DNA of 64,000 nt from a virus, in IMG/VR virus record IMGVR_UViG_3300045988_170206, positions 73,845-137,844 of that record. One strand, given 5' to 3'. Positions 24,126-62,920 of the stretch are shown here, in pieces; position 1 is the first letter of the stretch; each line of letters starts with the position of its first letter. Position numbers and translations under genes: made by a program. The notes below the pieces were generated by a model. That model was not told the DNA's origin. It ran no database searches and saw nothing but the letters and a program-made list of their open reading frames with translations.

Positions 24126-24202
24126 GGACGCGAGAAGCGCCTGAGACGAGTTACTTCATTTGGATCGAAACTACACTCGACTCAACTTTTTCTCTCGCGT
24201 CC
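24126..24202 (+). ncRNA. candidate structured RNA element A (long imperfect hairpin between tRNA-Ser and the TROVE gene)
   Basis: GGACGCGAGA (24126-24135) pairs with TCTCGCGTCC (24193-24202). An inner stem GAGACGAGT/ACTCGACTC is present. The apical sequence GAGTTACTTCATTTGGATCGAAACTACAC resembles that of element B at 26341-26443. Confidence 0.35.
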
Positions 24203-24248: not shown

Positions 24249-25820
24249 ATGGCGCGCATGAATACCCGAGGCGCGAAGCCTCGCAACATGGCTACCACTC
24301 CCGTCAGTACGACGACGGGACAGGCCTTCACCGCAGAAGGTGGAATGGGGTGGCAGCGCACCCCCAAGGGCGAGCTGTTCCTCGCCGCCGTGACCTCCCT
24401 CAACGAGGACACCTTCTACGAGACCGCCGATGAGCGCGTCAACCGTATCCAGACCCTCACCACGGACCCCGAGATCATCAACAGCCCCGAGTGGGCGCTC
24501 GGCATGGTCCGCTGGCTCCGCCAGGAAGTCGGACTCCGCTCGATCCCCGGTGTTGTCGCCATGACCGTCGTTAAGGCACGCCTGGACGCTGGCCTGACCG
24601 GCACGAACCGTCAGATTATCGAAGCGGCCATCGGTCGCCTCGACGAGGCCTCCGACATGATCGCCGGGTGGATGAGCCTGTACGGGCGTAACATCCCATC
24701 CTGCGTGCGCCGTGGCGTTGCCGACGCTCTGCGCGCCCGACTGTCCGAGCGTTCCTACCTCAAGTGGGTTGGCCGCATGAACTCGGGTAGCGTCACGCTC
24801 CGCGATGTCATCAACCTGACGCACCCCAAGCCGAAGGGTAAGACGCAGGAAGCGCTCATCAAACTCGTGCTCGACGAGGGCTACGGCAAGAAGGGCGACG
24901 ACAAGCAACTACCCACCATCCGAGCACGCCGTCAGTTCCTCGCCATGGACCGTGACGCGCAGATTAGCGCCCTCACCGGCCCGGACGCGAAGGATGTCAT
25001 CCGTAAGGCTGCTCTCACCCACGAGGTGATCGCAGGCGCAATCGGGACGATCCCCGCCGACGTGTGGGAAACCCTCGTCCCCGAGATGGGTTACATGGCC
25101 CTGCGAATGAACCTCCGACGCATCGAAGCATCCGGCGCGTCTCGCGCGCTGATCGCCACGATCAACGAGCGCCTGAGCGACGTGGAAGAGGCTGCGAAGT
25201 CTCGCACCATGCCGGTCGCGTTCTACGCAGCGTACAAGAACGCGCCGCTGGCCTTCGCCGCCGCCCTACAGGACGCAGCGAACGCTTCGCTCGAGAACGT
25301 TCCCGCGCTCAAGGGGCGCACGCTGGTCCTCCTGGACCGCTCCGGCTCGATGAGCTACCCCATGTCGGCGAAGTCGTCGCTGAGCTGCCAGGACACGGCC
25401 AACGTGTTCGCGTCGGCGCTCGCTATTCGAGGCGAGAGCGTCCGAGTGGTTGCGTTCGACGATCACATGGAGGACGTGAAGGTCGCCAGCACGGACCTGC
25501 TCCGTGTCGTGGACCAGATGCCCACCGCTCGAGGCTGCACCTACACGCCGGATGCTGTCGCTTACGCCCACAAGAAGGGCGAGAAGTACGACCGCATCAT
25601 CATCCTCACGGATGAGCAGTACAGGGGCGGCAGCGTCGATAACGCGCTCGACACGTATGCTCCCAGGGTTCCGGTGTTCACCTGGAACTTGGCGGGCTAT
25701 GCGACAGCGCAGATGGAGGCCCGAGAGGGCCGCTGGACCTTCGGCGGACTCTCCGACAAGGGCTTCCAGATGATCCCGCTCCTCGAGCGCGGGATCGGCC
25801 AGTCCTGGCCCTGGGAGTAA
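24249..25820 (+). CDS. Ro60-like TROVE domain plus vWA domain protein (Rsr-like)
   Basis: Start at the ATG at 24249 with an AAAGGAG RBS. TROVE-like N-terminal part (NEDTFYE..., MGYMALRMNLRRI, MPVAFYAAYK). vWA MIDAS-like segment LVLLDRSGSM...IIILTDEQ. Confidence 0.85.
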   Translation: MARMNTRGAKPRNMATTPVSTTTGQAFTAEGGMGWQRTPKGELFLAAVTSLNEDTFYETADERVNRIQTLTTDPEIINSPEWALGMVRWLRQEVGLRSIPGVVAMTVVKARLDAGLTGTNRQIIEAAIGRLDEASDMIAGWMSLYGRNIPSCVRRGVADALRARLSERSYLKWVGRMNSGSVTLRDVINLTHPKPKGKTQEALIKLVLDEGYGKKGDDKQLPTIRARRQFLAMDRDAQISALTGPDAKDVIRKAALTHEVIAGAIGTIPADVWETLVPEMGYMALRMNLRRIEASGASRALIATINERLSDVEEAAKSRTMPVAFYAAYKNAPLAFAAALQDAANASLENVPALKGRTLVLLDRSGSMSYPMSAKSSLSCQDTANVFASALAIRGESVRVVAFDDHMEDVKVASTDLLRVVDQMPTARGCTYTPDAVAYAHKKGEKYDRIIILTDEQYRGGSVDNALDTYAPRVPVFTWNLAGYATAQMEAREGRWTFGGLSDKGFQMIPLLERGIGQSWPWE

Positions 25821-27279: not shown

Positions 27280-27676
27280 ACCTCTCATCGTCGCGTTCGC
27301 CGCGGCCCTCGTCGCGTCCGCAGCCTTCATGGTTGCCACTGTCGTCCTCATGGGCGACACGGCCTTCAAGCGCAGCGCAGACACCCTCAGCGCCACGCTC
27401 ACAGTCGCACTCATCAGCGCAGTGTTCGCCTCCCCGATCTTCACCCCGGTCACCTACCAGGTGCCCGACGTGATCCACGCCTGGGTGAACTTCGGCCTCG
27501 CAGCCCTCGCACTGCTCCTGATGATGGTCACGGTGTGGAACATGTTCCGCCGATACCCCGACGTGCCCCTCACGATCCACTGGAGCGCATGGGCCATCAA
27601 CGGCATCATCGGCTACGCCCTATGCGGCTTCATCCCCACTATCCACTTCATCCATGCGATCAGCCCGTGGGCCTGA
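27272..27676 (+). CDS. predicted multi-pass membrane protein
   Basis: 134-aa ORF that overlaps the upstream stop. About four hydrophobic helices. Confidence 0.7.
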   Translation: MSEPLIVAFAAALVASAAFMVATVVLMGDTAFKRSADTLSATLTVALISAVFASPIFTPVTYQVPDVIHAWVNFGLAALALLLMMVTVWNMFRRYPDVPLTIHWSAWAINGIIGYALCGFIPTIHFIHAISPWA

Positions 27677-27689
27677 AAGGAACAACAAC

Positions 27690-28394
27690 ATGAACAAGCG
27701 CAAGTGGCTAACAGTTGAACGTGTGTGTGCGATTGTAGGAATCGTCTTCCTCTTGGCCCTCCACATCTGGCTGTACGGTGTCGTGCATTCGTCAGACGGA
27801 GGTAAGTCTGTCAGCAATATGGACACCAGTGCCGTCGCTGACGGAACCCTTAGCGACCTCAACGAGCTCGCCGTCAATGACAACCCCACACCGCCCAAGA
27901 AGTACAACCGGGTGGAGCAGTTCGGCCCCGCTTGGAAGGACGTGGACCATAACGGCTGCGACACGAGGAACGACATCCTCGCCCGCGACCTCAAAACCAT
28001 CAGCGACCGACGTAACGCCTGCGTCATTACCGCCGGCCAACTCGCAGACCCCTACTCGGGTAAGTGGATCGACTTCCGCAAGAAGGAAGCCTCAAAGGTC
28101 CAGATCGACCATGTTGTCGCCCTCGAGAACGCCTGGCAGTCCGGCGCGTACAACCTCACCCAGGAAGATCGTGAAGCCCTCGCCAACGACCCCGACAACC
28201 TCCTAGCCGTCAACGGCCACGACAACATGGCCAAGGGCTCCAAGAGCGCAGACCAATGGATGCCACCCAACACCGCATACGCCTGCACCTACGCCTCTAA
28301 ACAGGTCCAGATCAAGAACCGCTACGCTCTCACAGTGACCACACCGGAAAAGCAGGCCCTCGCCGACGCACTGGCAACCTGCACCACCAACTAG
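27690..28394 (+). CDS. membrane-anchored/secreted DUF1524-type HNH (His-Me finger) nuclease
   Basis: ATG at 27690 with an AAAGGAAC RBS. N-terminal TM anchor. The motif DHNGCDTRNDIL...QIDHVVALENAWQSGA...ANDPDNLLAVNGHDNMAKGSKSADQWMP is characteristic of DUF1524/GmrSD-C-like extracellular nucleases. Confidence 0.8.
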   Translation: MNKRKWLTVERVCAIVGIVFLLALHIWLYGVVHSSDGGKSVSNMDTSAVADGTLSDLNELAVNDNPTPPKKYNRVEQFGPAWKDVDHNGCDTRNDILARDLKTISDRRNACVITAGQLADPYSGKWIDFRKKEASKVQIDHVVALENAWQSGAYNLTQEDREALANDPDNLLAVNGHDNMAKGSKSADQWMPPNTAYACTYASKQVQIKNRYALTVTTPEKQALADALATCTTN

Positions 28395-47449: not shown

Positions 47450-48673
47450 TCAGTCGGCGAGAAGGTGGTAGATGAGTGAGGGGCACGTGTAGGGCGTTGC
47501 TCCGAATCGCCCCTCGAGGTAGTTCTTGGTGATGTTGCTCCCTGACTGTAGGCCGGTGAAGTCGGAGAGCTGGTAGAGCGTGGTGGCCTGGGCGCTGTTC
47601 TTCTCTGTGAACCAGATGCGCTCACGGTTATGGATGGGGCCGCGGCCAATGTCCATGAGTGCGATGTCGTTGGTCGTGAAGATGAGCTGGGCTCCCGTCT
47701 GGTTGGCGGTGAAGGCGGTGAACCAGTTGATGATGATGCGACCAAGCTCCGTGTGGAGGGAAGCCGTCAGATCATCCACAACGAGCACCTGTCCGCTAGT
47801 GAGCGCGTCAACGGCTGCGGCGGCGAGCGCCAGCCACATGATGCTCCCCGAAGATGCTGAGAGTGCCGTGTGGGGGACTGTGTGCTCCCCGTAATGGAAC
47901 TCGAGGAGGTGGGGGAGAGCCTTCGCGAGCGTGACCTCCGCAGCCTCTCTGTCTGCGGGCGTATGGTGTGTGGAGCGCGCTGGCCGCTGGGGGGTGCGCA
48001 GCTCAATGCTCGTAGTGCCAAGGTCTGCAACCTGAGCGAGCGCGCTCAGGGCCGTCGTGTCGAGGCGGCGCGACAGAAGGTGCCTGGCGATATGCAGGTA
48101 TGCGTCCTCCATCGAGGGAACGCCGACACGGAAGACCTTGACCCCAGTCGTGAGCGCGTCGCGGACGGGCTTCACCTGCGGGTCGCCCATGAGGGACGCT
48201 CGAGTGAGAACCAGTTCGTTCACGTTGACATGGGGGAGGCCTTTCAGGCCGGTCACAGCCCCGTGTATGTCGCGCGAGTAGATGGTGTTCCACCGCTTGC
48301 GGGCAACGCGCAGGTGCTCCCCTGCAACGCCGTCTGCGTTCCGAGACAGGCTGTACTCGTAGCGCATGTTATCGAGGATGAACTCGATGCTGTAGCAGGT
48401 GGGCTTCGATGCGTCGTAGGGCCTGTAGGGGAGCGCGTTCGCCCCCAGGGGCAGGAGGGTAGTGATCGCACTCTTCATGTGGTGGAAGGCTTCTAGGATG
48501 TTCGTTTTCCCAGAGCCGTTGGGACCGTAGATGCCTGCGAGGCGGTGCAGGTAGTCGCCCCACTGAGTGCCTCCTGGCGGATTGAGGGTGCGTATTGCCG
48601 ATAGGGCGAGGTTGAGGGTGGCCTCATCCCTGATCGACTTGTGATTGCTAATTGTGATGTTGAGCAGTTGCAT
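47450..48673 (-). CDS. AAA_21/ABC-type P-loop ATPase (stand-alone, minus strand)
   Basis: Start at the ATG at 48673 (MQLLNITISNHKSIRD). Walker A GPNGSGKTN, Walker B/D-loop-like VLVVDDLTASLH, QLIFTTN. Confidence 0.8.
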   Translation of the reverse strand: MQLLNITISNHKSIRDEATLNLALSAIRTLNPPGGTQWGDYLHRLAGIYGPNGSGKTNILEAFHHMKSAITTLLPLGANALPYRPYDASKPTCYSIEFILDNMRYEYSLSRNADGVAGEHLRVARKRWNTIYSRDIHGAVTGLKGLPHVNVNELVLTRASLMGDPQVKPVRDALTTGVKVFRVGVPSMEDAYLHIARHLLSRRLDTTALSALAQVADLGTTSIELRTPQRPARSTHHTPADREAAEVTLAKALPHLLEFHYGEHTVPHTALSASSGSIMWLALAAAAVDALTSGQVLVVDDLTASLHTELGRIIINWFTAFTANQTGAQLIFTTNDIALMDIGRGPIHNRERIWFTEKNSAQATTLYQLSDFTGLQSGSNITKNYLEGRFGATPYTCPSLIYHLLAD

Positions 48674-48694
48674 ACCCACAAAGTAACACACATA

Positions 48695-48729
48695 GGCGCA
48701 TTTATGATATTTTTTATCACGAACGCGCC
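48695..48729. promoter_or_regulatory. palindromic operator-like sequence in a divergent promoter region
   Basis: GGCGCATTTATGATATTTTTTATCACGAACGCGCC, with TGATA/TATCA and GGCGC/GCGCC arms. Confidence 0.4.
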
Positions 48730-48763
48730 GAACAGTGCTCCAAACCGAGAAAGCGAGACCGCC

Positions 48764-49363
48764 ATGAAGGAAGTCCAATACATCCCACTTGGGGATATTT
48801 GGCCACAAAACCTATCCAAAGAAACACAGCAGGCGATTCGACACACCGGGTATCTTGCAGACCTAAAGCCGGACCACCCAGCCTTCACACAGGATACGAA
48901 TAGCTACACCATCTTCGCGCAGACGCGCCGCCGCACATGTCCAACCCCCGAGCTCCAGTACCACTGGGACAAAACCCGGCGCTTCCTGGAAGGAGTCCTC
49001 CGCATGAAGAGCGTGGACATCTTCCCCGTGGCCTACTGGGCATGGCAGACCTCCCTGTGGATAAAGGACGCGCAAGATGACTTCACGCGCCAAATGCACG
49101 AGCGCAGCGGCGTGCTCGTCGCCCCCGACGACGGGACCGTCGTCGGCTACACGATGTGTATGCCAGTCAACTCCACCTCCGGCACACAGTGGAGTGAATC
49201 CGTGCTCAGGCCCGACACATGCGAAGCCTACGGTCTCGACGCTGACAAGCCCATCCCGGTGGGGAACGGCTACTGGTTCGTACACCCCGCCATCATGTAC
49301 GGCCAGCAGATCGCGCACGTCCGCTACGTCAACGTCGGTATGGGGGATGCCATCAACTCGTAA
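48764..49363 (+). CDS. hypothetical protein
   Basis: ATG at 48764. 199 aa. Precedes the ImmA-like gene by 5 nt. Confidence 0.65.
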   Translation: MKEVQYIPLGDIWPQNLSKETQQAIRHTGYLADLKPDHPAFTQDTNSYTIFAQTRRRTCPTPELQYHWDKTRRFLEGVLRMKSVDIFPVAYWAWQTSLWIKDAQDDFTRQMHERSGVLVAPDDGTVVGYTMCMPVNSTSGTQWSESVLRPDTCEAYGLDADKPIPVGNGYWFVHPAIMYGQQIAHVRYVNVGMGDAINS

Positions 49364-50246: not shown

Positions 50247-51500
50247 ATGAGGACATTCTTCATCGTCCGAGGAGCGCCCGGTATCGGCAAGAGCACCTTC
50301 CTCAGCCTCTACCAGGCCCGCGGCCAAGTCGTCTCCCTCGACGGGATCCGCGACGTGTTCGCCATGCCCATCCCCGACTGGGACGGCGTTCCCGGAAGGT
50401 CCATCTGTGGGGACACTGAGGGGACGATCTCCCGCGTCCTCGAGTCCGCCCTGCGGTCACGCTTCGAGCAGGGTGGCGACGTGTTCTTCGACGCGACCAA
50501 CCCGGAGCTGCAACAGTTCAAGCACCTCGCCGACATGTCCCGAGCCTACGGCTACCAGGTCGCTGTCATCGACATGCAAGGGAACGCCACCGACGACATG
50601 ATCCTCGCGCAGAACGCGAAGCGCGCGGGCAGCGTCACCTACGTCCCCGAAGAAGACGTTCTCAGGATCTCAACGCGAGTCCGTGAGGGCACCCGCGAGT
50701 GCCGCCGGTACGCGGGACGTGGCATGTGGGTGTCCGCCCAGTGGGAAGAACGTGACTGTGGGCTGCACCTGGTCAACCTCGATGCCATGCGCGACTTCGT
50801 GCGCTCCACCATCGACGGGCGCTACGTCAAGACGATCACCCCGAAAGCGGGGGAGCGTGTCGTCATTGTCGGGAGCGCCTACGGTGGTGCTCAGCCACTC
50901 AGCGCAACGCTCATGGAAGCCTGGGACGCGACCAAGGATGCGCGCGCCGTGACGTGGGTGTTCCTCGGAGATGCGCTCGCATCCAGCCCGCACGTCACCC
51001 AGGCGTGGAAGATCCTCAAGTACTTCGAGACCCAAGCCAAGCAACACGGCCACACCGTCATCTTCCTTGAAGGGATCGACGAGACTATCCTGCGTGAAAT
51101 CCTCACCCGCGCCGCCAGCTCCCACGCATTCCCTGACGCTCGAGAAGTCATCGACGCAATCACCCGAACGGGAACCCAGAAACGCGACCTCCTGCGTCAC
51201 CTGAACAACCTCACCTGCGCGCTCACCATCCACACGGAAAGCGGAACCTGCTACGTCACCACCGGCGGCACCGCAAACCAGGACCGCACTCTCACCGCCC
51301 TCGAGTGCACCAACGGCGCAAACGACCGCACCAGCACCTACCGTAGGAAGACCAACTACGAGGACTACCCTGAACCCCTCAGTGAGGCAGCGGCCCGCGC
51401 CGACATTACGATCATCCACGGCCACAGGAACACACCTCACGACATGCCCCGAGTCGTCGCCGTCGAAACCGGGAAGGCCCCCGGTTACGTGATCCTCTGA
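50247..51500 (+). CDS. P-loop kinase (polynucleotide-kinase/AAA_33-like) fused to a degenerate calcineurin-like phosphoesterase domain
   Basis: FFIVRGAPGIGKSTF, VSLDGIR and FFDATN fit a kinase. The C-terminal half has VIVGSAYGG / FLGDALASSP / FLEGIDE / IIHGHRN in the positions of the GDxHG / GDxxDRG / GNHE / H motifs. Confidence 0.65.
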   Translation: MRTFFIVRGAPGIGKSTFLSLYQARGQVVSLDGIRDVFAMPIPDWDGVPGRSICGDTEGTISRVLESALRSRFEQGGDVFFDATNPELQQFKHLADMSRAYGYQVAVIDMQGNATDDMILAQNAKRAGSVTYVPEEDVLRISTRVREGTRECRRYAGRGMWVSAQWEERDCGLHLVNLDAMRDFVRSTIDGRYVKTITPKAGERVVIVGSAYGGAQPLSATLMEAWDATKDARAVTWVFLGDALASSPHVTQAWKILKYFETQAKQHGHTVIFLEGIDETILREILTRAASSHAFPDAREVIDAITRTGTQKRDLLRHLNNLTCALTIHTESGTCYVTTGGTANQDRTLTALECTNGANDRTSTYRRKTNYEDYPEPLSEAAARADITIIHGHRNTPHDMPRVVAVETGKAPGYVIL

Positions 51501-61793: not shown

Positions 61794-61812
61794 CCTGTGA
61801 TCTACTTAACCG
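61794..61812 (+). promoter_or_regulatory. conserved intergenic motif CCTGTGATCTACTTAACC (copy C)
   Basis: Identical 18-mer to copy B. Lies upstream of the second tRNA array. Confidence 0.6.
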
Positions 61813-62158: not shown

Positions 62159-62276
62159 GGATCTCTAGCTTAATTGGGGCCGTTACGCGGTGTTCTAGGC
62201 CCGCTGCGCGACTCCCTGGGTAAAGCGCCTGCCCGAAGGACGGCAGGAGATGACAGTTCGATCCTGTCGAGACCCA
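62159..62276 (+). ncRNA. non-canonical tRNA-like gene (118 nt) with a ~50-nt D-loop insertion and an 8-nt anticodon-position loop
   Basis: Acceptor GGATCTC/GAGACCC (one A.C mismatch). T arm GACAG-TTCGATC-CTGTC. D stem GCTT/AAGC enclosing the hairpin GGGCC...GGCCC. Arm CCTGCC-CGAAGGAC-GGCAGG. Confidence 0.45.
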
Positions 62277-62278
62277 CA

Positions 62279-62334
62279 GCGTTGGTTCTGGTGGACCGGA
62301 GTAGTAGGTGCGGGTTCAAGTCCCGCCACGCGCC
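62279..62334 (+). ncRNA. short T-arm-containing tRNA-like fragment (no anticodon arm foldable)
   Basis: T arm GCGGG-TTCAAGT-CCCGC. Weak acceptor pairing GCGTTGG/CACGCGC (5 of 7). Confidence 0.3.
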
Positions 62335-62341
62335 CCGCAAG

Positions 62342-62398
62342 GGCGGTGTAGCTTAAGCAAGAGCGGCGAAACGAGAGGGGTTCGATTCCCCGGCGTGA
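62342..62398 (+). ncRNA. short T-arm-containing tRNA-like fragment
   Basis: A D-arm-like TAGCTTAAGCAAGAGC and a T arm GGGG-TTCGATT-CCCC. I found no convincing acceptor or anticodon stem. Confidence 0.25.
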
Positions 62399-62448
62399 GA
62401 GAACAGAATACTAGTCAGTTCTCGGATTGGGGGTAGCTCCCCCTTTCT

Positions 62449-62548
62449 GGACCGTTAGCTCAACGGTAGAGCGGCTGCTGGATCGTTTGATTGTTCCTAC
62501 GATCAAATGATCGAGTGGCCGATGCGGGTTCGATTCCTGCACGGTCCA
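62449..62548 (+). ncRNA. tRNA-like RNA with a canonical acceptor, D arm and T arm but a ~19-bp rod in place of the anticodon arm
   Basis: Acceptor GGACCGT/ACGGTCC (perfect). D arm TAGCTCAACGGTAGAGC. T arm GCGGG-TTCGATT-CCTGC. The GCTGC-TGGATCGTTTGATT segment, loop GTTCCTAC, and GATCAAATGATCGA-GTGGC form one long helix. Confidence 0.55.
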
Positions 62549-62623
62549 CAATGCGTAGCTCTAATTGGAAGAGCGCCAGGCCGTAAAACCTGGAGGTTGC
62601 GGGTTCGAGTCCCGTCGCAGAGC
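62549..62623 (+). ncRNA. tRNA-like gene with an 8-nt anticodon loop and a weakened acceptor stem
   Basis: D arm TAGCTCTAATTGGAAGAGC. Arm CCAGG-CCGTAAAA-CCTGG. T arm GCGGG-TTCGAGT-CCCGT. Acceptor CAATGCG/CGCAGAG pairs at 5 of 7 positions. Confidence 0.4.
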
Positions 62624-62705
62624 GCGACTTGTTCGCGTGCGAAGGTAGCGAAAGCTAACCGTTGGGGGTTGATCTCCCCAGGGGATAGCTGGACCTGTTT
62701 TCGTC

Positions 62706-62778
62706 AGGGGTATAGTTCAGCCGCGATCTGTTCGATGCGCACGAATGGAACGTGTGGGTGCGACTCCCACTGCCCCGC
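62706..62778 (+). ncRNA. degenerate tRNA-like gene (possible GCG anticodon, atypical T loop TGCGACT)
   Basis: Acceptor AGGGGTA/TGCCCCG. Arm GTTCG-ATGCGCA-CGAAT. T arm GTGGG-TGCGACT-CCCAC, with G in the position of the invariant U55. Confidence 0.35.
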
Positions 62779-62780
62779 CT

Positions 62781-62854
62781 GGGCTGTTAGCTACAACTGG
62801 TAGAGCACCTGTTTTGCAAGCAGGGGGTTACGGGTTCGAGTCCCGTACAGTCCA
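62781..62854 (+). tRNA. tRNA-Ala (TGC) with the G3:U70 identity pair
   Basis: Acceptor GGGCTGT/ACAGTCC, anticodon arm CCTGT-TTTGCAA-GCAGG, T arm ACGGG-TTCGAGT-CCCGT. Confidence 0.9.
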
Positions 62855-62920
62855 CGGCTGTTCTCGTAAGAGATGCAGCTACCTAGCTGCTAGGTGTCCT
62901 CCGGGACTACCTGGCCTTAC

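What the first reader, a model, noticed from the sequence alone, without database searches (positions are those of the whole stretch)
62449..62548. tRNA-like gene with a perfect acceptor, D arm and T arm but a ~19-bp rod instead of an anticodon arm
Hand fold: 7-bp acceptor GGACCGT/ACGGTCC, canonical D arm, T arm GCGGG-TTCGATT-CCTGC. The anticodon-stem pairs GCTGC/GTGGC continue into a 14-position helix (TGGATCGTTTGATT with GATCAAATGATCGA), which has one G.G mismatch and a few G.U pairs. The helix is capped by an 8-nt loop, GTTCCTAC. This is not a standard tRNA. I cannot extract a 7-nt YU-NNN-R loop, and I cannot identify an intron at the canonical 37/38 position. Possibilities by inference: a decoy or sponge for anticodon nucleases or tRNA-modifying enzymes, a Ro/other RNP ligand, a processing scaffold, or an unusual intron-containing tRNA.
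Basis: seen in the sequence. Interest (0 to 1): 0.75.

Follow-up and report, generated by a model that had tools for sequence, protein, structure and literature searches.

The report
Phage tRNA mimic lacking an anticodon
An uncultivated phage of Actinobacteria makes an RNA with every feature of a transfer RNA except the anticodon loop, which is replaced by a 21-base-pair rod; related phages keep it almost unchanged, so it is probably a working tRNA look-alike rather than a broken gene, but its partner and job are still unknown.

Summary
Window 62449-62548 (+) has an intact 7-bp acceptor stem, D arm, T arm and all the tertiary-contact bases of a tRNA. The anticodon arm is replaced by a 7-bp plus 14-bp helix with one G.G mismatch and a UCCU loop. 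Rfam scores it as tRNA at 46 bits, against a 29-bit threshold. ARAGORN does not call it as a tRNA. No contiguous excision restores a canonical anticodon loop, so it cannot decode.

It sits inside a phage tRNA operon and looks like a paralogue of the phage's tRNA-Ala(UGC). In 21 related contigs it is 96-100% identical to the window copy. Fourfold-degenerate sites of the neighbouring gene are only 78-90% identical. Nine of ten stem substitutions keep the base pair. That indicates purifying selection, but true covariation in the rod is not demonstrable. The element is accessory: six distinct related contigs lack it, and at least two of those still encode Ro60.

The phage encodes Ro60 36.6 kb away, which makes the "Ro ligand" idea attractive. 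However, the rod lacks the Ro-binding motif, and a better Y-RNA candidate lies directly upstream of Ro60.

Most likely it is a non-decoding tRNA mimic that acts as a ligand or decoy for tRNA-binding proteins. I rate it a new variant of a known kind, of moderate interest.

The parts
62449..62548 (+). Whole tRNA-like gene ('rod-tRNA'), 100 nt including discriminator A; no encoded CCA
   Evidence: Rfam tRNA 46.1 bits; MFE cloverleaf with z = -7.26; 96-100% identical in 21 related loci
62449..62455 (+). Acceptor stem 5' strand GGACCGU. It pairs with 62541-62547 (ACGGUCC). Position 3 is A (A3-U70) in the window and G (G3.U70) in variant L001
62458..62472 (+). D arm GCUC-AACGGUA-GAGC with A14, A15 and G18G19; U8 and A9 precede it
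   Evidence: read from sequence; invariant in all 9 variants
62473..62520 (+). Rod replacing the anticodon arm: 7 bp (the 26:44 pair, stem GCUGC/GUGGC, the 32:38 pair), a G.G mismatch (62480/62513), then 14 bp. It contains 4 G.U pairs
   Evidence: Not repeated elsewhere in the window, and no excision gives a canonical loop
62495..62498 (+). Apical UCCU tetraloop of the rod
   Evidence: invariant in all variants
62524..62540 (+). T arm GCGGG-UUCGAUU-CCUGC. The one pair with changes on both sides among relatives (G.U / A-U / G-C) is in this stem
61795..61811 (+). Promoter-like 17-mer CTGTGATCTACTTAACC upstream of the tRNA operon that contains the element. The same motif precedes the other tRNA cluster
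   Evidence: 4 copies on the + strand against 0.08 expected
62781..62855 (+). tRNA-Ala(UGC), the likely parent or paralogue. In relatives lacking the rod-tRNA this gene takes its place, directly after the same 5' flank

Best explanation
It is a functional, non-decoding tRNA mimic derived from a tRNA-Ala(UGC) paralogue.

Shown: it lies inside a tRNA operon on the coding strand. It keeps every element needed for the tRNA L-shape: a 7-bp acceptor stem, U8-A14, A15-U48, G18G19 with the T-loop UUCGA, and G53-C61. Its anticodon loop is replaced by a continuous 21-bp helix. It is under purifying selection. It is an accessory gene within its phage lineage.

Inferred: the transcript is cut out by RNase P at the 5' end and by 3' trimming plus CCA addition, like its tRNA neighbours, and folds into a stable L-shape. 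The rod makes decoding impossible and removes the site cut by anticodon nucleases. The A3-U70 pair, found in all variants but one, removes alanine identity. The RNA would therefore accumulate as an uncharged, translation-inert tRNA body carrying a double-stranded arm. It would act by binding proteins that recognise the acceptor end and elbow of tRNAs, as a decoy, competitor or adaptor in the tRNA-centred conflict between phage and host.

The partner is not identified. The leading candidates are host toxins or enzymes that act on tRNA acceptor ends or bodies, and the phage's own Ro60 particle, which is treated separately as a rival.
For: Structure: Rfam tRNA 46.1 bits with the insert confined to the anticodon arm; MFE z = -7.26; the + strand folds at -56.3 kcal/mol against -35 for the - strand.

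No decoding: ARAGORN finds no anticodon and no deletion restores a canonical loop.

Selection: there are 9 variants in 21 related loci, 96-100% identical to the window copy. Fourfold sites of the adjacent 760-aa ORF are 78-90% identical to the window in those same loci. Three loci with 81-84% fourfold identity have a 100/100 identical rod-tRNA. Of 10 substitutions in stems, 9 keep pairing, and none falls in the 26 unpaired positions.

Origin: the same 5' flank, the acceptor strand GGRCCGUUAGC and a similar T arm and 3' acceptor are shared with tRNA-Ala(UGC), which replaces the element in rod-less relatives.

Context: a promoter-like motif lies upstream of the operon. The neighbour E1 is a second tRNA-like RNA with a rod in its D loop, supported by 4 compensatory pairs. 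The same phage carries Ro60 and a polynucleotide-kinase-like gene.

Recurrence: unrelated phage contigs carry tRNA-like genes with 16-21-bp anticodon rods of different sequence, two of them demonstrably among canonical tRNA genes (L078, L165; also L175, L162).
Against: There are no expression, processing or binding data. Covariation in the rod is not significant: there are only one-sided changes, and 124 of 500 shuffles reach the observed score. One recurrent change, U55C, gives an A.C mismatch, and variant L402 has a 1-nt deletion in the rod, so the constraint is not absolute. The element is absent from six distinct related contigs, so it is dispensable. The high sequence identity could partly reflect recent recombinational spread of the tRNA cassette rather than selection. 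The rod sequence and its loop are invariant, which a pure 'tRNA-body decoy' does not explain and which hints at a sequence-specific role for the rod. No candidate partner protein was identified.
Confidence: 0.45

Rival explanations
1. Y-RNA-like adaptor of the phage Ro60. The rod plays the part of the long stem of YrlA and binds Ro60, while the tRNA-like body recruits an effector. The element would then be an unpermuted YrlA, or a tRNA-like module supplied in trans to a Ro60 particle whose own Y RNA lacks one.
For: The phage encodes Ro60 with TROVE and vWA domains, phrog 'RNA-binding protein' at 9e-44, related to phiLo Ro60, PDB 9L5Y, at 6e-26. Seven of ten rod-bearing IMG/VR contigs are seen to carry Ro60. 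The overall shape, a tRNA body plus a long helix in place of the anticodon arm, is that of YrlA (PMC4201824). Among 67 other Ro60 loci, 55 have a T-arm/hairpin/D-arm element within 1 kb of Ro60, while this lineage has none in 13 loci. The Ro60-adjacent RNA candidate at 24126-24202 has no tRNA-like domain.
Against: The rod has no GNCGAA/CGAA motif, no actinophage-type UACUUC motif and no bulged helix. The only Rfam YrlA hit overlapping the element is a 25-bit junction artefact with the next tRNA, against a threshold of 69. The element is 36.6 kb from Ro60, whereas Y RNAs normally abut it. Rod-less relatives (contigs 153843 and 166510) keep Ro60. A conserved stem-loop carrying the motif GACGAGUUACUUCA lies directly upstream of Ro60 and is the better Y-RNA candidate. 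Independent rod-tRNA contigs did not appear among the best 80 Ro60 loci, although that list was truncated.
Confidence: 0.15
2. Decaying paralogue. A duplicated tRNA-Ala gene was inactivated by a palindromic insertion in the anticodon loop and is carried along without function.
For: It is a paralogue of tRNA-Ala and is dispensable in six distinct related contigs. Its neighbour E5 (62549-62623) looks degenerate, with two acceptor mismatches, an 8-nt loop and a variable sequence. Variant L402 carries a deletion in the rod. tRNA gene content in this cluster turns over: tRNA-Val is missing from several relatives.
Against: Divergence is 0-4% against 10-22% at neutral sites of the adjacent gene. Nine of ten stem changes are pair-preserving and none falls in a loop. 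The neighbouring E5 diverges strongly over the same set of genomes, so the cassette as a whole is not simply young.
Confidence: 0.12
3. tRNA-scaffolded precursor. The tRNA body serves only for RNase P and 3' processing and for stability, and the 21-bp rod is the active part. It would be cut by RNase III, or bound as double-stranded RNA, to give a small RNA or a dsRNA-protein complex.
For: The rod is a near-perfect duplex about the minimal length of an RNase III substrate (the length requirement is from general knowledge). The rod sequence and loop are invariant, not just the pairing. The architecture equals the engineered 'tRNA scaffold' (own knowledge).
Against: No target was found. The best complementarity of the rod strands to the window is 11 nt, at chance level. 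Rods of the other phages share no sequence with it. There is no processing evidence.
Confidence: 0.1
4. Intron-containing tRNA that is spliced to a normal decoding tRNA.
For: The extra 29-36 nt sit exactly where tRNA introns sit.
Against: No contiguous deletion yields a 5-bp stem plus a 7-nt loop with Y32, U33 and R37. There is no bulge-helix-bulge motif, only a 1x1 G.G mismatch. The insert is far too short for a group I intron. ARAGORN finds no anticodon.
Confidence: 0.03
5. 3' part of a phage tmRNA spanning 62177-62549, as called by ARAGORN.
For: ARAGORN makes the call in the window and in relatives. An upstream GGGCCGU at 62178 could pair with the 3' acceptor strand, giving a G3.U70 pair.
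Against: The 'tag' AGSSPATRPARAV is read from a T-arm sequence (62310-62326 onward). Rfam tmRNA models give only 13-17-bit T-loop fragments in relative L004, and no tmRNA hit is listed for the window region. The interval contains three further tRNA-like modules with their own stems, supported by compensatory changes. The rod-tRNA has its own complete 5' acceptor strand and D arm.
Confidence: 0.02
6. DNA-level palindrome, such as a protein-binding or recombination site, that happens to lie in a tRNA gene.
For: It is a 32-bp imperfect palindrome that begins and ends with GATC.
Against: The two arm differences are exactly those that give G.U pairs in the + strand RNA and mismatches in DNA or in the - strand. 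Substitutions in relatives run to and from G.U. There are no other copies in the window.
Confidence: 0.03

Closest known systems
YrlA (Rfam RF02553), the bacterial and phage Y RNA with a tRNA-like domain that partners Ro60/Rsr
   Same: Both have a tRNA-type T arm, D arm and 7-8-bp acceptor helix, with a long helix where the anticodon arm would be. Both are non-decoding. A Ro60 gene is present in the same genome.
   Different: YrlA is circularly permuted: its ends lie in the long stem and its acceptor is closed by a loop. It carries GNCGAA (in actinophages, UACUUC) on the 5' strand and abuts the Ro60 gene. Here the ends are at the acceptor, the rod is closed by a loop, the motif is absent, the gene is 36.6 kb from Ro60, and Rfam gives no hit of its own.
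Canonical tRNA (RF00005), specifically the phage's own tRNA-Ala(UGC)
   Same: The acceptor stem, T arm, tertiary-contact bases, operon position and flanks are shared, and it passes the Rfam tRNA threshold.
   Different: There is no anticodon loop. A3-U70 replaces the G3.U70 alanine identity pair in all variants but one. The D arm differs.
tRNA-like domain of tmRNA
   Same: Both have an alanine-type acceptor and T arm with a long helix (P2) leaving from the anticodon-arm position. The L001 variant has G3.U70 and A73.
   Different: tmRNA has no D stem, its helix is open and leads to pseudoknots and a tag reading frame, and it needs SmpB. None of that is present here.
Stable RNAs of unknown function in the phage T4 tRNA cluster (species 1 and 2, rnaC/rnaD). 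Recalled from memory, not checked here
   Same: They are small stable RNAs encoded among phage tRNA genes, co-transcribed and co-processed with them, with no decoding role.
   Different: No sequence or structural relationship was tested, and the hosts and phage families differ.
Engineered 'tRNA scaffold' for RNA expression (Ponchon and Dardel; own knowledge, with a related paper, PMC3753655, listed)
   Same: The architecture is identical: a tRNA body with the anticodon stem-loop replaced by a helix or hairpin of interest, exploiting tRNA processing and stability.
   Different: That design is man-made. This is a natural, conserved example with an unknown cargo function.
Murid gammaherpesvirus 68 tRNA-miRNA encoding RNAs (TMERs). 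Own knowledge
   Same: They are viral, non-aminoacylated tRNA-like RNAs linked to hairpins, using tRNA processing enzymes.
   Different: Their hairpins follow the tRNA rather than replacing its anticodon arm, and they depend on eukaryotic miRNA machinery.

Membership tests
tRNA (RF00005) | Score above the curated Rfam gathering threshold over the full model | tested here: met
   46.1 bits against 29, model positions 1-71; 49.3 bits in relative L004
tRNA (RF00005) | Acceptor, D and T arms with the conserved tertiary-contact nucleotides | tested here: met
   U8, A14, A15/U48, G18G19, UUCGA T loop and G53-C61 read from the sequence; fold
tRNA (RF00005) | 5-bp anticodon stem closed by a 7-nt loop (Y32 U33 NNN R37) | tested here: not met
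   The Rfam alignment replaces 13 central positions with 42 nt; ARAGORN finds no anticodon; the helix is continuous
tRNA (RF00005) | Aminoacylation and use in translation | not testable with these tools
   A3-U70 argues against alanine identity in the window; the L001 variant has G3.U70
Intron-containing tRNA | Removing one contiguous segment leaves a canonical anticodon arm | tested here: not met
   Exhaustive deletion scan gave 0 solutions
Intron-containing tRNA | Bulge-helix-bulge motif, or a group I intron core (over 200 nt) | tested here: not met
   Only a 1x1 G.G mismatch is present, and the insert is about 29-36 nt
YrlA / Y RNA (RF02553) | Score above the Rfam gathering threshold (69 bits) | tested here: not met
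   The only overlapping hit is 25.1 bits and spans the junction with the next tRNA. Genuine actinophage YrlAs scored 31-50 bits
YrlA / Y RNA (RF02553) | Permuted topology: 5' strand, T arm, closed acceptor hairpin, D arm, 3' strand | tested here: not met
   The order here is the native tRNA order, with open acceptor ends and a closed rod
YrlA / Y RNA (RF02553) | Ro-binding motif GNCGAA(N)G (or CGAA, or the actinophage form UACUUC) in the long stem | tested here: not met
   The motif is defined in PMC4201824 and PMC12135203. It is absent from 62473-62520 and present instead at 24126-24202
YrlA / Y RNA (RF02553) | Encoded next to the Ro60 gene | tested here: not met
   Ro60 is at 24249-25820 and the element at 62449, 36.6 kb apart
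YrlA / Y RNA (RF02553) | Physical association with Ro60 | not testable with these tools
   Needs gel shifts or immunoprecipitation
tmRNA | Rfam tmRNA model match, a tag reading frame and pseudoknots | tested here: not met
   No tmRNA hit is listed for the window region, and only T-loop fragments of 13-17 bits appear in relative L004. ARAGORN's tag lies on a T arm

The most novel reading that the evidence does not exclude
The rod-tRNA, together with the D-loop-rod tRNA-like RNA E1 next to it and the independent rod-bearing tRNA-likes in other phage contigs, would represent an unrecognised class of phage non-coding RNAs. These would be tRNA bodies used as natural scaffolds to display a double-stranded arm. 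They would act either as trans-supplied tRNA-like modules of a 'split' Ro60/Y-RNA particle or as non-cleavable decoys against host defences that act on tRNAs.
Probability: 0.15. Interest if true: 0.8.

Novelty: new variant of a known kind. Interest (0 to 1): 0.5.

Why it matters
Phage tRNA clusters are usually read as codon-usage helpers or as replacements for tRNAs destroyed by host defences. This element is a conserved member of such a cluster that cannot decode. That would show phages also keep tRNA-shaped RNAs for non-translational purposes, as bacteria do with YrlA.

This lineage offers an unusually clean system for studying that. It has a Ro60 gene and a Ro60-adjacent Y-like RNA without a tRNA-like domain. 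It also has two different 'tRNA plus rod' RNAs, and natural genomes with and without the rod-tRNA. The system could make the long-open question of what the tRNA-like part of Y RNAs does directly testable. It is also a natural counterpart of the engineered tRNA scaffold.

Tried and rejected
- **Known phage relatives:** DNA search of the tRNA region against GenBank phages gave only generic tRNA hits. Protein searches point to actinophages as the nearest, but distant, relatives.
- **Mobile hairpin (MITE-like) idea:** there are no other copies of the rod in the window.
- **Intron idea:** rejected by the deletion scan.
- **tmRNA call by ARAGORN:** rejected as an artefact.
- **Shared loop motif AUACUAGUC:** it occurs in the upstream hairpin (62399-62423) and in a LuckySocke tRNA-like insert, but is at chance level and not conserved in close relatives.
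- **E2/E3 block (62310-62364) as a bona fide YrlA:** it scores only 17-22 bits and no closing Ro-binding stem was found, so this is inconclusive.
- **L335 'native-topology' candidate:** it turned out to be an ordinary YrlA at 50 bits.
- **Pairing between the Ro60-adjacent RNA and the tRNA-like block:** duplex predictions were uninformative and not above shuffled controls.
- **Bacterial genomes:** the element's pattern has no family-A copy in representative genomes, so there is no prophage or host clue.
- **More distant homologues for covariation:** the IMG/VR and metagenome scans returned only the same lineage at 96-100% identity.
- **Sister lineage L317 (Ro60 55% identical):** it has no Rfam YrlA but has a divergent Y-like RNA upstream of Ro60.
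- **PDB sequence searches of two neighbouring large ORFs:** nothing found.
- **Not available:** tRNAscan-SE could not be run.

Full report
**Observation**

The minimum-free-energy fold is a cloverleaf at -56.3 kcal/mol with z = -7.26, and none of 200 shuffles folds as well. It has:
- a 7-bp acceptor stem (GGACCGU/ACGGUCC);
- a D arm (GCUC-AACGGUA-GAGC);
- a T arm (GCGGG-UUCGAUU-CCUGC);
- a discriminator A.

One continuous helix stands in place of the anticodon arm. It comprises the 26:44 pair, the five anticodon-stem pairs and a 32:38 U-A pair, then a G.G mismatch, then 14 further pairs closed by a UCCU tetraloop. All bases that build the tRNA L-shape are present: U8, A14, A15/U48, G18G19, the UUCGA T loop and G53-C61.

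Rfam's tRNA model matches from end to end at 46.1 bits against a threshold of 29. It places 42 nt where 13 central anticodon-arm positions belong. ARAGORN does not call it as a tRNA. The reverse strand folds at only -35 kcal/mol, because the four G.U pairs of the rod become mismatches. The RNA therefore belongs to the + strand.

**It cannot be a decoding or intron-containing tRNA**

I deleted every contiguous segment of the central region and looked for a 5-bp stem with a Y-U-NNN-R-N loop. None exists. There are no bulge-helix-bulge bulges, and the insert is an order of magnitude too short for a group I intron.

ARAGORN's 'tmRNA' at 62177-62549 is an artefact. Its tag peptide is read from a T-arm sequence. 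The Rfam table for the window region lists no tmRNA hit, and in relative L004 the tmRNA model gives only T-loop fragments.

**Where it sits**

The window is phage-like: 60% G+C, with all but one of the identifiable genes on the + strand, and two tRNA clusters. Its recognisable proteins are:
- a replication initiator;
- RecT;
- a C5 DNA methylase;
- a tail lysozyme;
- an HNH/ParB protein;
- a polynucleotide-kinase-like protein;
- Ro60.

The nearest relatives are actinophages, and they are distant. The window corresponds to IMG/VR contig 3300045988_165625.

A 17-nt motif, CTGTGATCTAsTTAACC, occurs four times on the + strand against 0.08 expected, and precedes both tRNA clusters. The element therefore lies in a tRNA operon and would be released by the tRNA-processing enzymes; that step is inferred.

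The stretch 62159-62780 holds further non-canonical tRNA-like genes:
- **E1 (62159-62276)** has a roughly 40-nt rod inserted in its D loop, supported by four compensatory pairs.
- **62310-62364** is a T arm, 8-bp hairpin and D arm in the permuted order typical of YrlA, but scores only 17-22 bits.
- **E5 (62549-62623)** has an 8-nt anticodon loop.
- **E6 (62707-62777)** is a tRNA-Arg(GCG)-like gene.

**Relatives**

Pattern and protein-anchored scans of IMG/VR and JGI/ENA metagenomes recovered the element in 21 loci, as 9 distinct variants that are 96-100% identical to the window copy.
- Fourfold-degenerate sites of the neighbouring 760-aa ORF are only 78-90% identical to the window in those same loci. 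Three loci with 81-84% fourfold identity have a rod-tRNA identical at 100 of 100 positions.
- Ten substitutions fall in stems. Nine keep pairing, by moving to or from G.U. One, U55C, gives A.C.
- None falls in the 26 unpaired positions.

This argues for purifying selection on an RNA. It is not covariation in the strict sense. Only one pair, in the T stem, changes on both sides, and the shuffle control is not significant at 124 of 500. The sequences are too close, and I could not find more distant homologues.

**Origin and dispensability**

In six distinct related contigs (loci L384, L385/L405, L392, L397, L400, L403) the conserved upstream block is followed directly by tRNA-Ala(UGC). That gene has the same 5' flank, the same acceptor strand (GGGCCGUUAGC) and a similar T arm and 3' end. 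The rod-tRNA, E5 and E6 are missing.

The rod-tRNA is thus a paralogue of tRNA-Ala and an accessory gene. Rod-less L400 and rod-bearing L001 share the same E1 variant, so gain or loss happened more than once, or the cassette recombines. The alanine identity pair G3.U70 survives only in the most divergent variant, L001. All others have A3-U70.

**The Ro60 lead**

ORF 24249-25820 is a Ro60 orthologue embedded in the first tRNA cluster, as in Streptomyces, Gordonia and Arthrobacter phages. Those phages, and 55 of 67 other Ro60 loci in IMG/VR, carry a YrlA-type element within 1 kb of Ro60. The 13 loci of this lineage have none.

Four things count against it:
- The rod has neither the GNCGAA/CGAA motif nor its actinophage form UACUUC.
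- It is 36.6 kb from Ro60.
- At least two rod-less relatives keep Ro60.
- A conserved 77-nt stem-loop lies directly between tRNA-Ser and Ro60, at 24126-24202. It has a 10-bp closing stem and the invariant motif GACGAGUUACUUCA, with z = -3.6. It matches the 5' motif of actinophage YrlAs, for example BRock's GACGAGAGAUACUUCA, but has no tRNA-like domain. That RNA is the more likely Y RNA.

A 'split' arrangement, in which tRNA-like modules are supplied in trans, is not excluded, but nothing tested here supports it. Duplex predictions were uninformative.

**Recurrence elsewhere**

A scan of IMG/VR used a common D-arm and T-loop pair separated by 46-70 nt. It returned many phage tRNA-likes with enlarged centres. 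Several are true rods of 16-21 bp in unrelated contigs: L078 and L165 lie among canonical tRNA genes, and L175 and L162 were also found. They share no rod sequence with this element. A second family, B, in about 24 contigs has the same D arm but a branched 30-nt insert. The architecture therefore arises repeatedly, which favours a general use of the tRNA body as a scaffold or mimic.

**Conclusion**

The best-supported reading, at about 0.45, is a functional, non-decoding tRNA mimic. It would be processed and folded like a tRNA, made translation-inert by the rod and by loss of G3.U70, and would act as a ligand, decoy or adaptor for proteins that read the tRNA acceptor end and elbow. The partner is unidentified.

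Rivals and their estimated likelihoods:
- Ro60 adaptor, 0.15;
- decaying paralogue, 0.12, disfavoured by the conservation contrast;
- scaffolded double-stranded RNA or small-RNA precursor, 0.10;
- spliced tRNA, 0.03;
- DNA palindrome, 0.03;
- tmRNA fragment, 0.02.

It passes the Rfam tRNA threshold but fails the defining anticodon-loop feature. It resembles YrlA in shape but fails four defining features of that family that I tested, plus the Rfam score threshold. I therefore class it as a new variant of the known kind 'tRNA-like non-coding RNA', of moderate interest.

Noticed in passing
window 24249-25820 (+): A Ro60/TROVE plus vWA orthologue is embedded in the first tRNA cluster, between tRNA-Ser(GCU) and tRNA-Lys. 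It is related to phage phiLo Ro60 (PDB 9L5Y, E = 6e-26) and to 'Ro-like RNA binding proteins' of Streptomyces, Gordonia and Arthrobacter phages.
   Followed up: yes
window 24126-24202 (+): A conserved 77-nt stem-loop lies directly upstream of Ro60. It has a 10-bp closing stem (GGACGCGAGA/UCUCGCGUCC) and the invariant motif GACGAGUUACUUCA, which resembles the Ro-binding 5' motif of actinophage YrlAs, but it has no T or D arm. It is probably a Y RNA without a tRNA-like domain. Rfam does not detect it.
   Followed up: partly
window 62159-62276 (+): E1 is a tRNA-like gene with intact acceptor and T arms, a roughly 40-nt rod inserted in the D loop (4 compensatory pairs among relatives) and a non-decoding 'anticodon' loop of 8 or 6 nt. 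It is present in every relative, including those lacking the rod-tRNA. Its apical loop GUGUYCUAGG loosely resembles the rod apex UUGUUCCUACG.
   Followed up: partly
window 62280-62448 (+): This is a highly conserved block. It holds a T arm (62310-62326), an 8-bp hairpin and a D arm (62349-62364) in the permuted YrlA order, then GGCGAA, a further T-arm-like hairpin (62378-62392) and two hairpins (62399-62423, 62429-62443). One compensatory pair occurs in the T stem. Rfam YrlA scores only 17-22 bits, and its nature is unresolved.
   Followed up: partly
window 62549-62623 (+): E5 is a tRNA-like gene with an 8-nt anticodon loop (CCGUAAAA; ARAGORN anticodon 'gtaa') and two acceptor-stem mismatches. 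The loop differs in close relatives, and the gene is a normal tRNA-Thr(UGU) in L001. It is either a degenerating gene or a four-base decoder.
   Followed up: no
window 62707-62777 (+): E6 is a tRNA-Arg(GCG)-like gene with a 7-bp anticodon stem and an atypical T loop, UGCGACU. ARAGORN calls it tRNA-Arg in relative L024 but not in the window.
   Followed up: no
window 23910, 30442, 37880, 61795 (+): The 17-nt motif CTGTGATCTAsTTAACC occurs four times on the coding strand against 0.08 expected. Two copies lie just upstream of the two tRNA clusters. It is likely a phage-specific promoter element.
   Followed up: partly
window 62439-62448 (+): The leader immediately 5' of the rod-tRNA ends in CCCCCUUUCU after a GC hairpin. 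From memory, this resembles the pyrimidine-rich anti-Shine-Dalgarno 3' tail of 16S rRNA (CCUCCUUUCU). It is semi-conserved in relatives and may be coincidence.
   Followed up: no
window 50247-51500 (+); 47450-48808 (-); 27654-28394 (+): These are a polynucleotide-kinase-like P-loop protein (matching the N-terminal part of a phrog 'RNA ligase' family), an AAA_21 ATPase that is the only identifiable minus-strand gene, and a GmrSD_C nuclease-domain protein. They are possible RNA-repair and conflict genes in the same phage.
   Followed up: no
L002, L003 and about 22 other IMG/VR loci (e.g. L002:5614-5691): Family B is a different tRNA-like gene with the same D arm. It reads GGGGAG..., with a 30-nt branched insert in place of the anticodon loop, a bulged T stem and the same ACAA 3' flank. 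It occurs in 30-60-kb viral contigs that have few or no tRNA genes. ARAGORN does not call it.
   Followed up: no
L078:~1720-1835; L175; L162; L165; L252: These are independent tRNA-like genes with 16-21-bp rods or enlarged loops in place of the anticodon loop, in unrelated phage contigs. L078 is from a 373-kb contig and lies between tRNA-Lys and tRNA-Phe. They share no rod sequence with the window element.
   Followed up: partly
L056:12115-12195 (Streptomyces phage BRock); L057:13022-13102 (LuckySocke): These 81-nt RNAs score 57-64 bits on the Rfam tmRNA model by matching only its two ends. They are tmRNA tRNA-like domains without any mRNA-like part. The same phages also have near-threshold manA-RNA hits between tRNA-Lys genes, and tRNA genes with inserts of roughly 55 and 85 nt (L057:12888-13014, 2820-2974).
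   Followed up: no
L317:9557-9715: The nearest outgroup (Ro60 55% identical, 201-kb contig) has, upstream of Ro60, a long-stemmed RNA with a CUUACUUC motif and a T arm. It looks like a divergent Y RNA that Rfam misses.
   Followed up: partly
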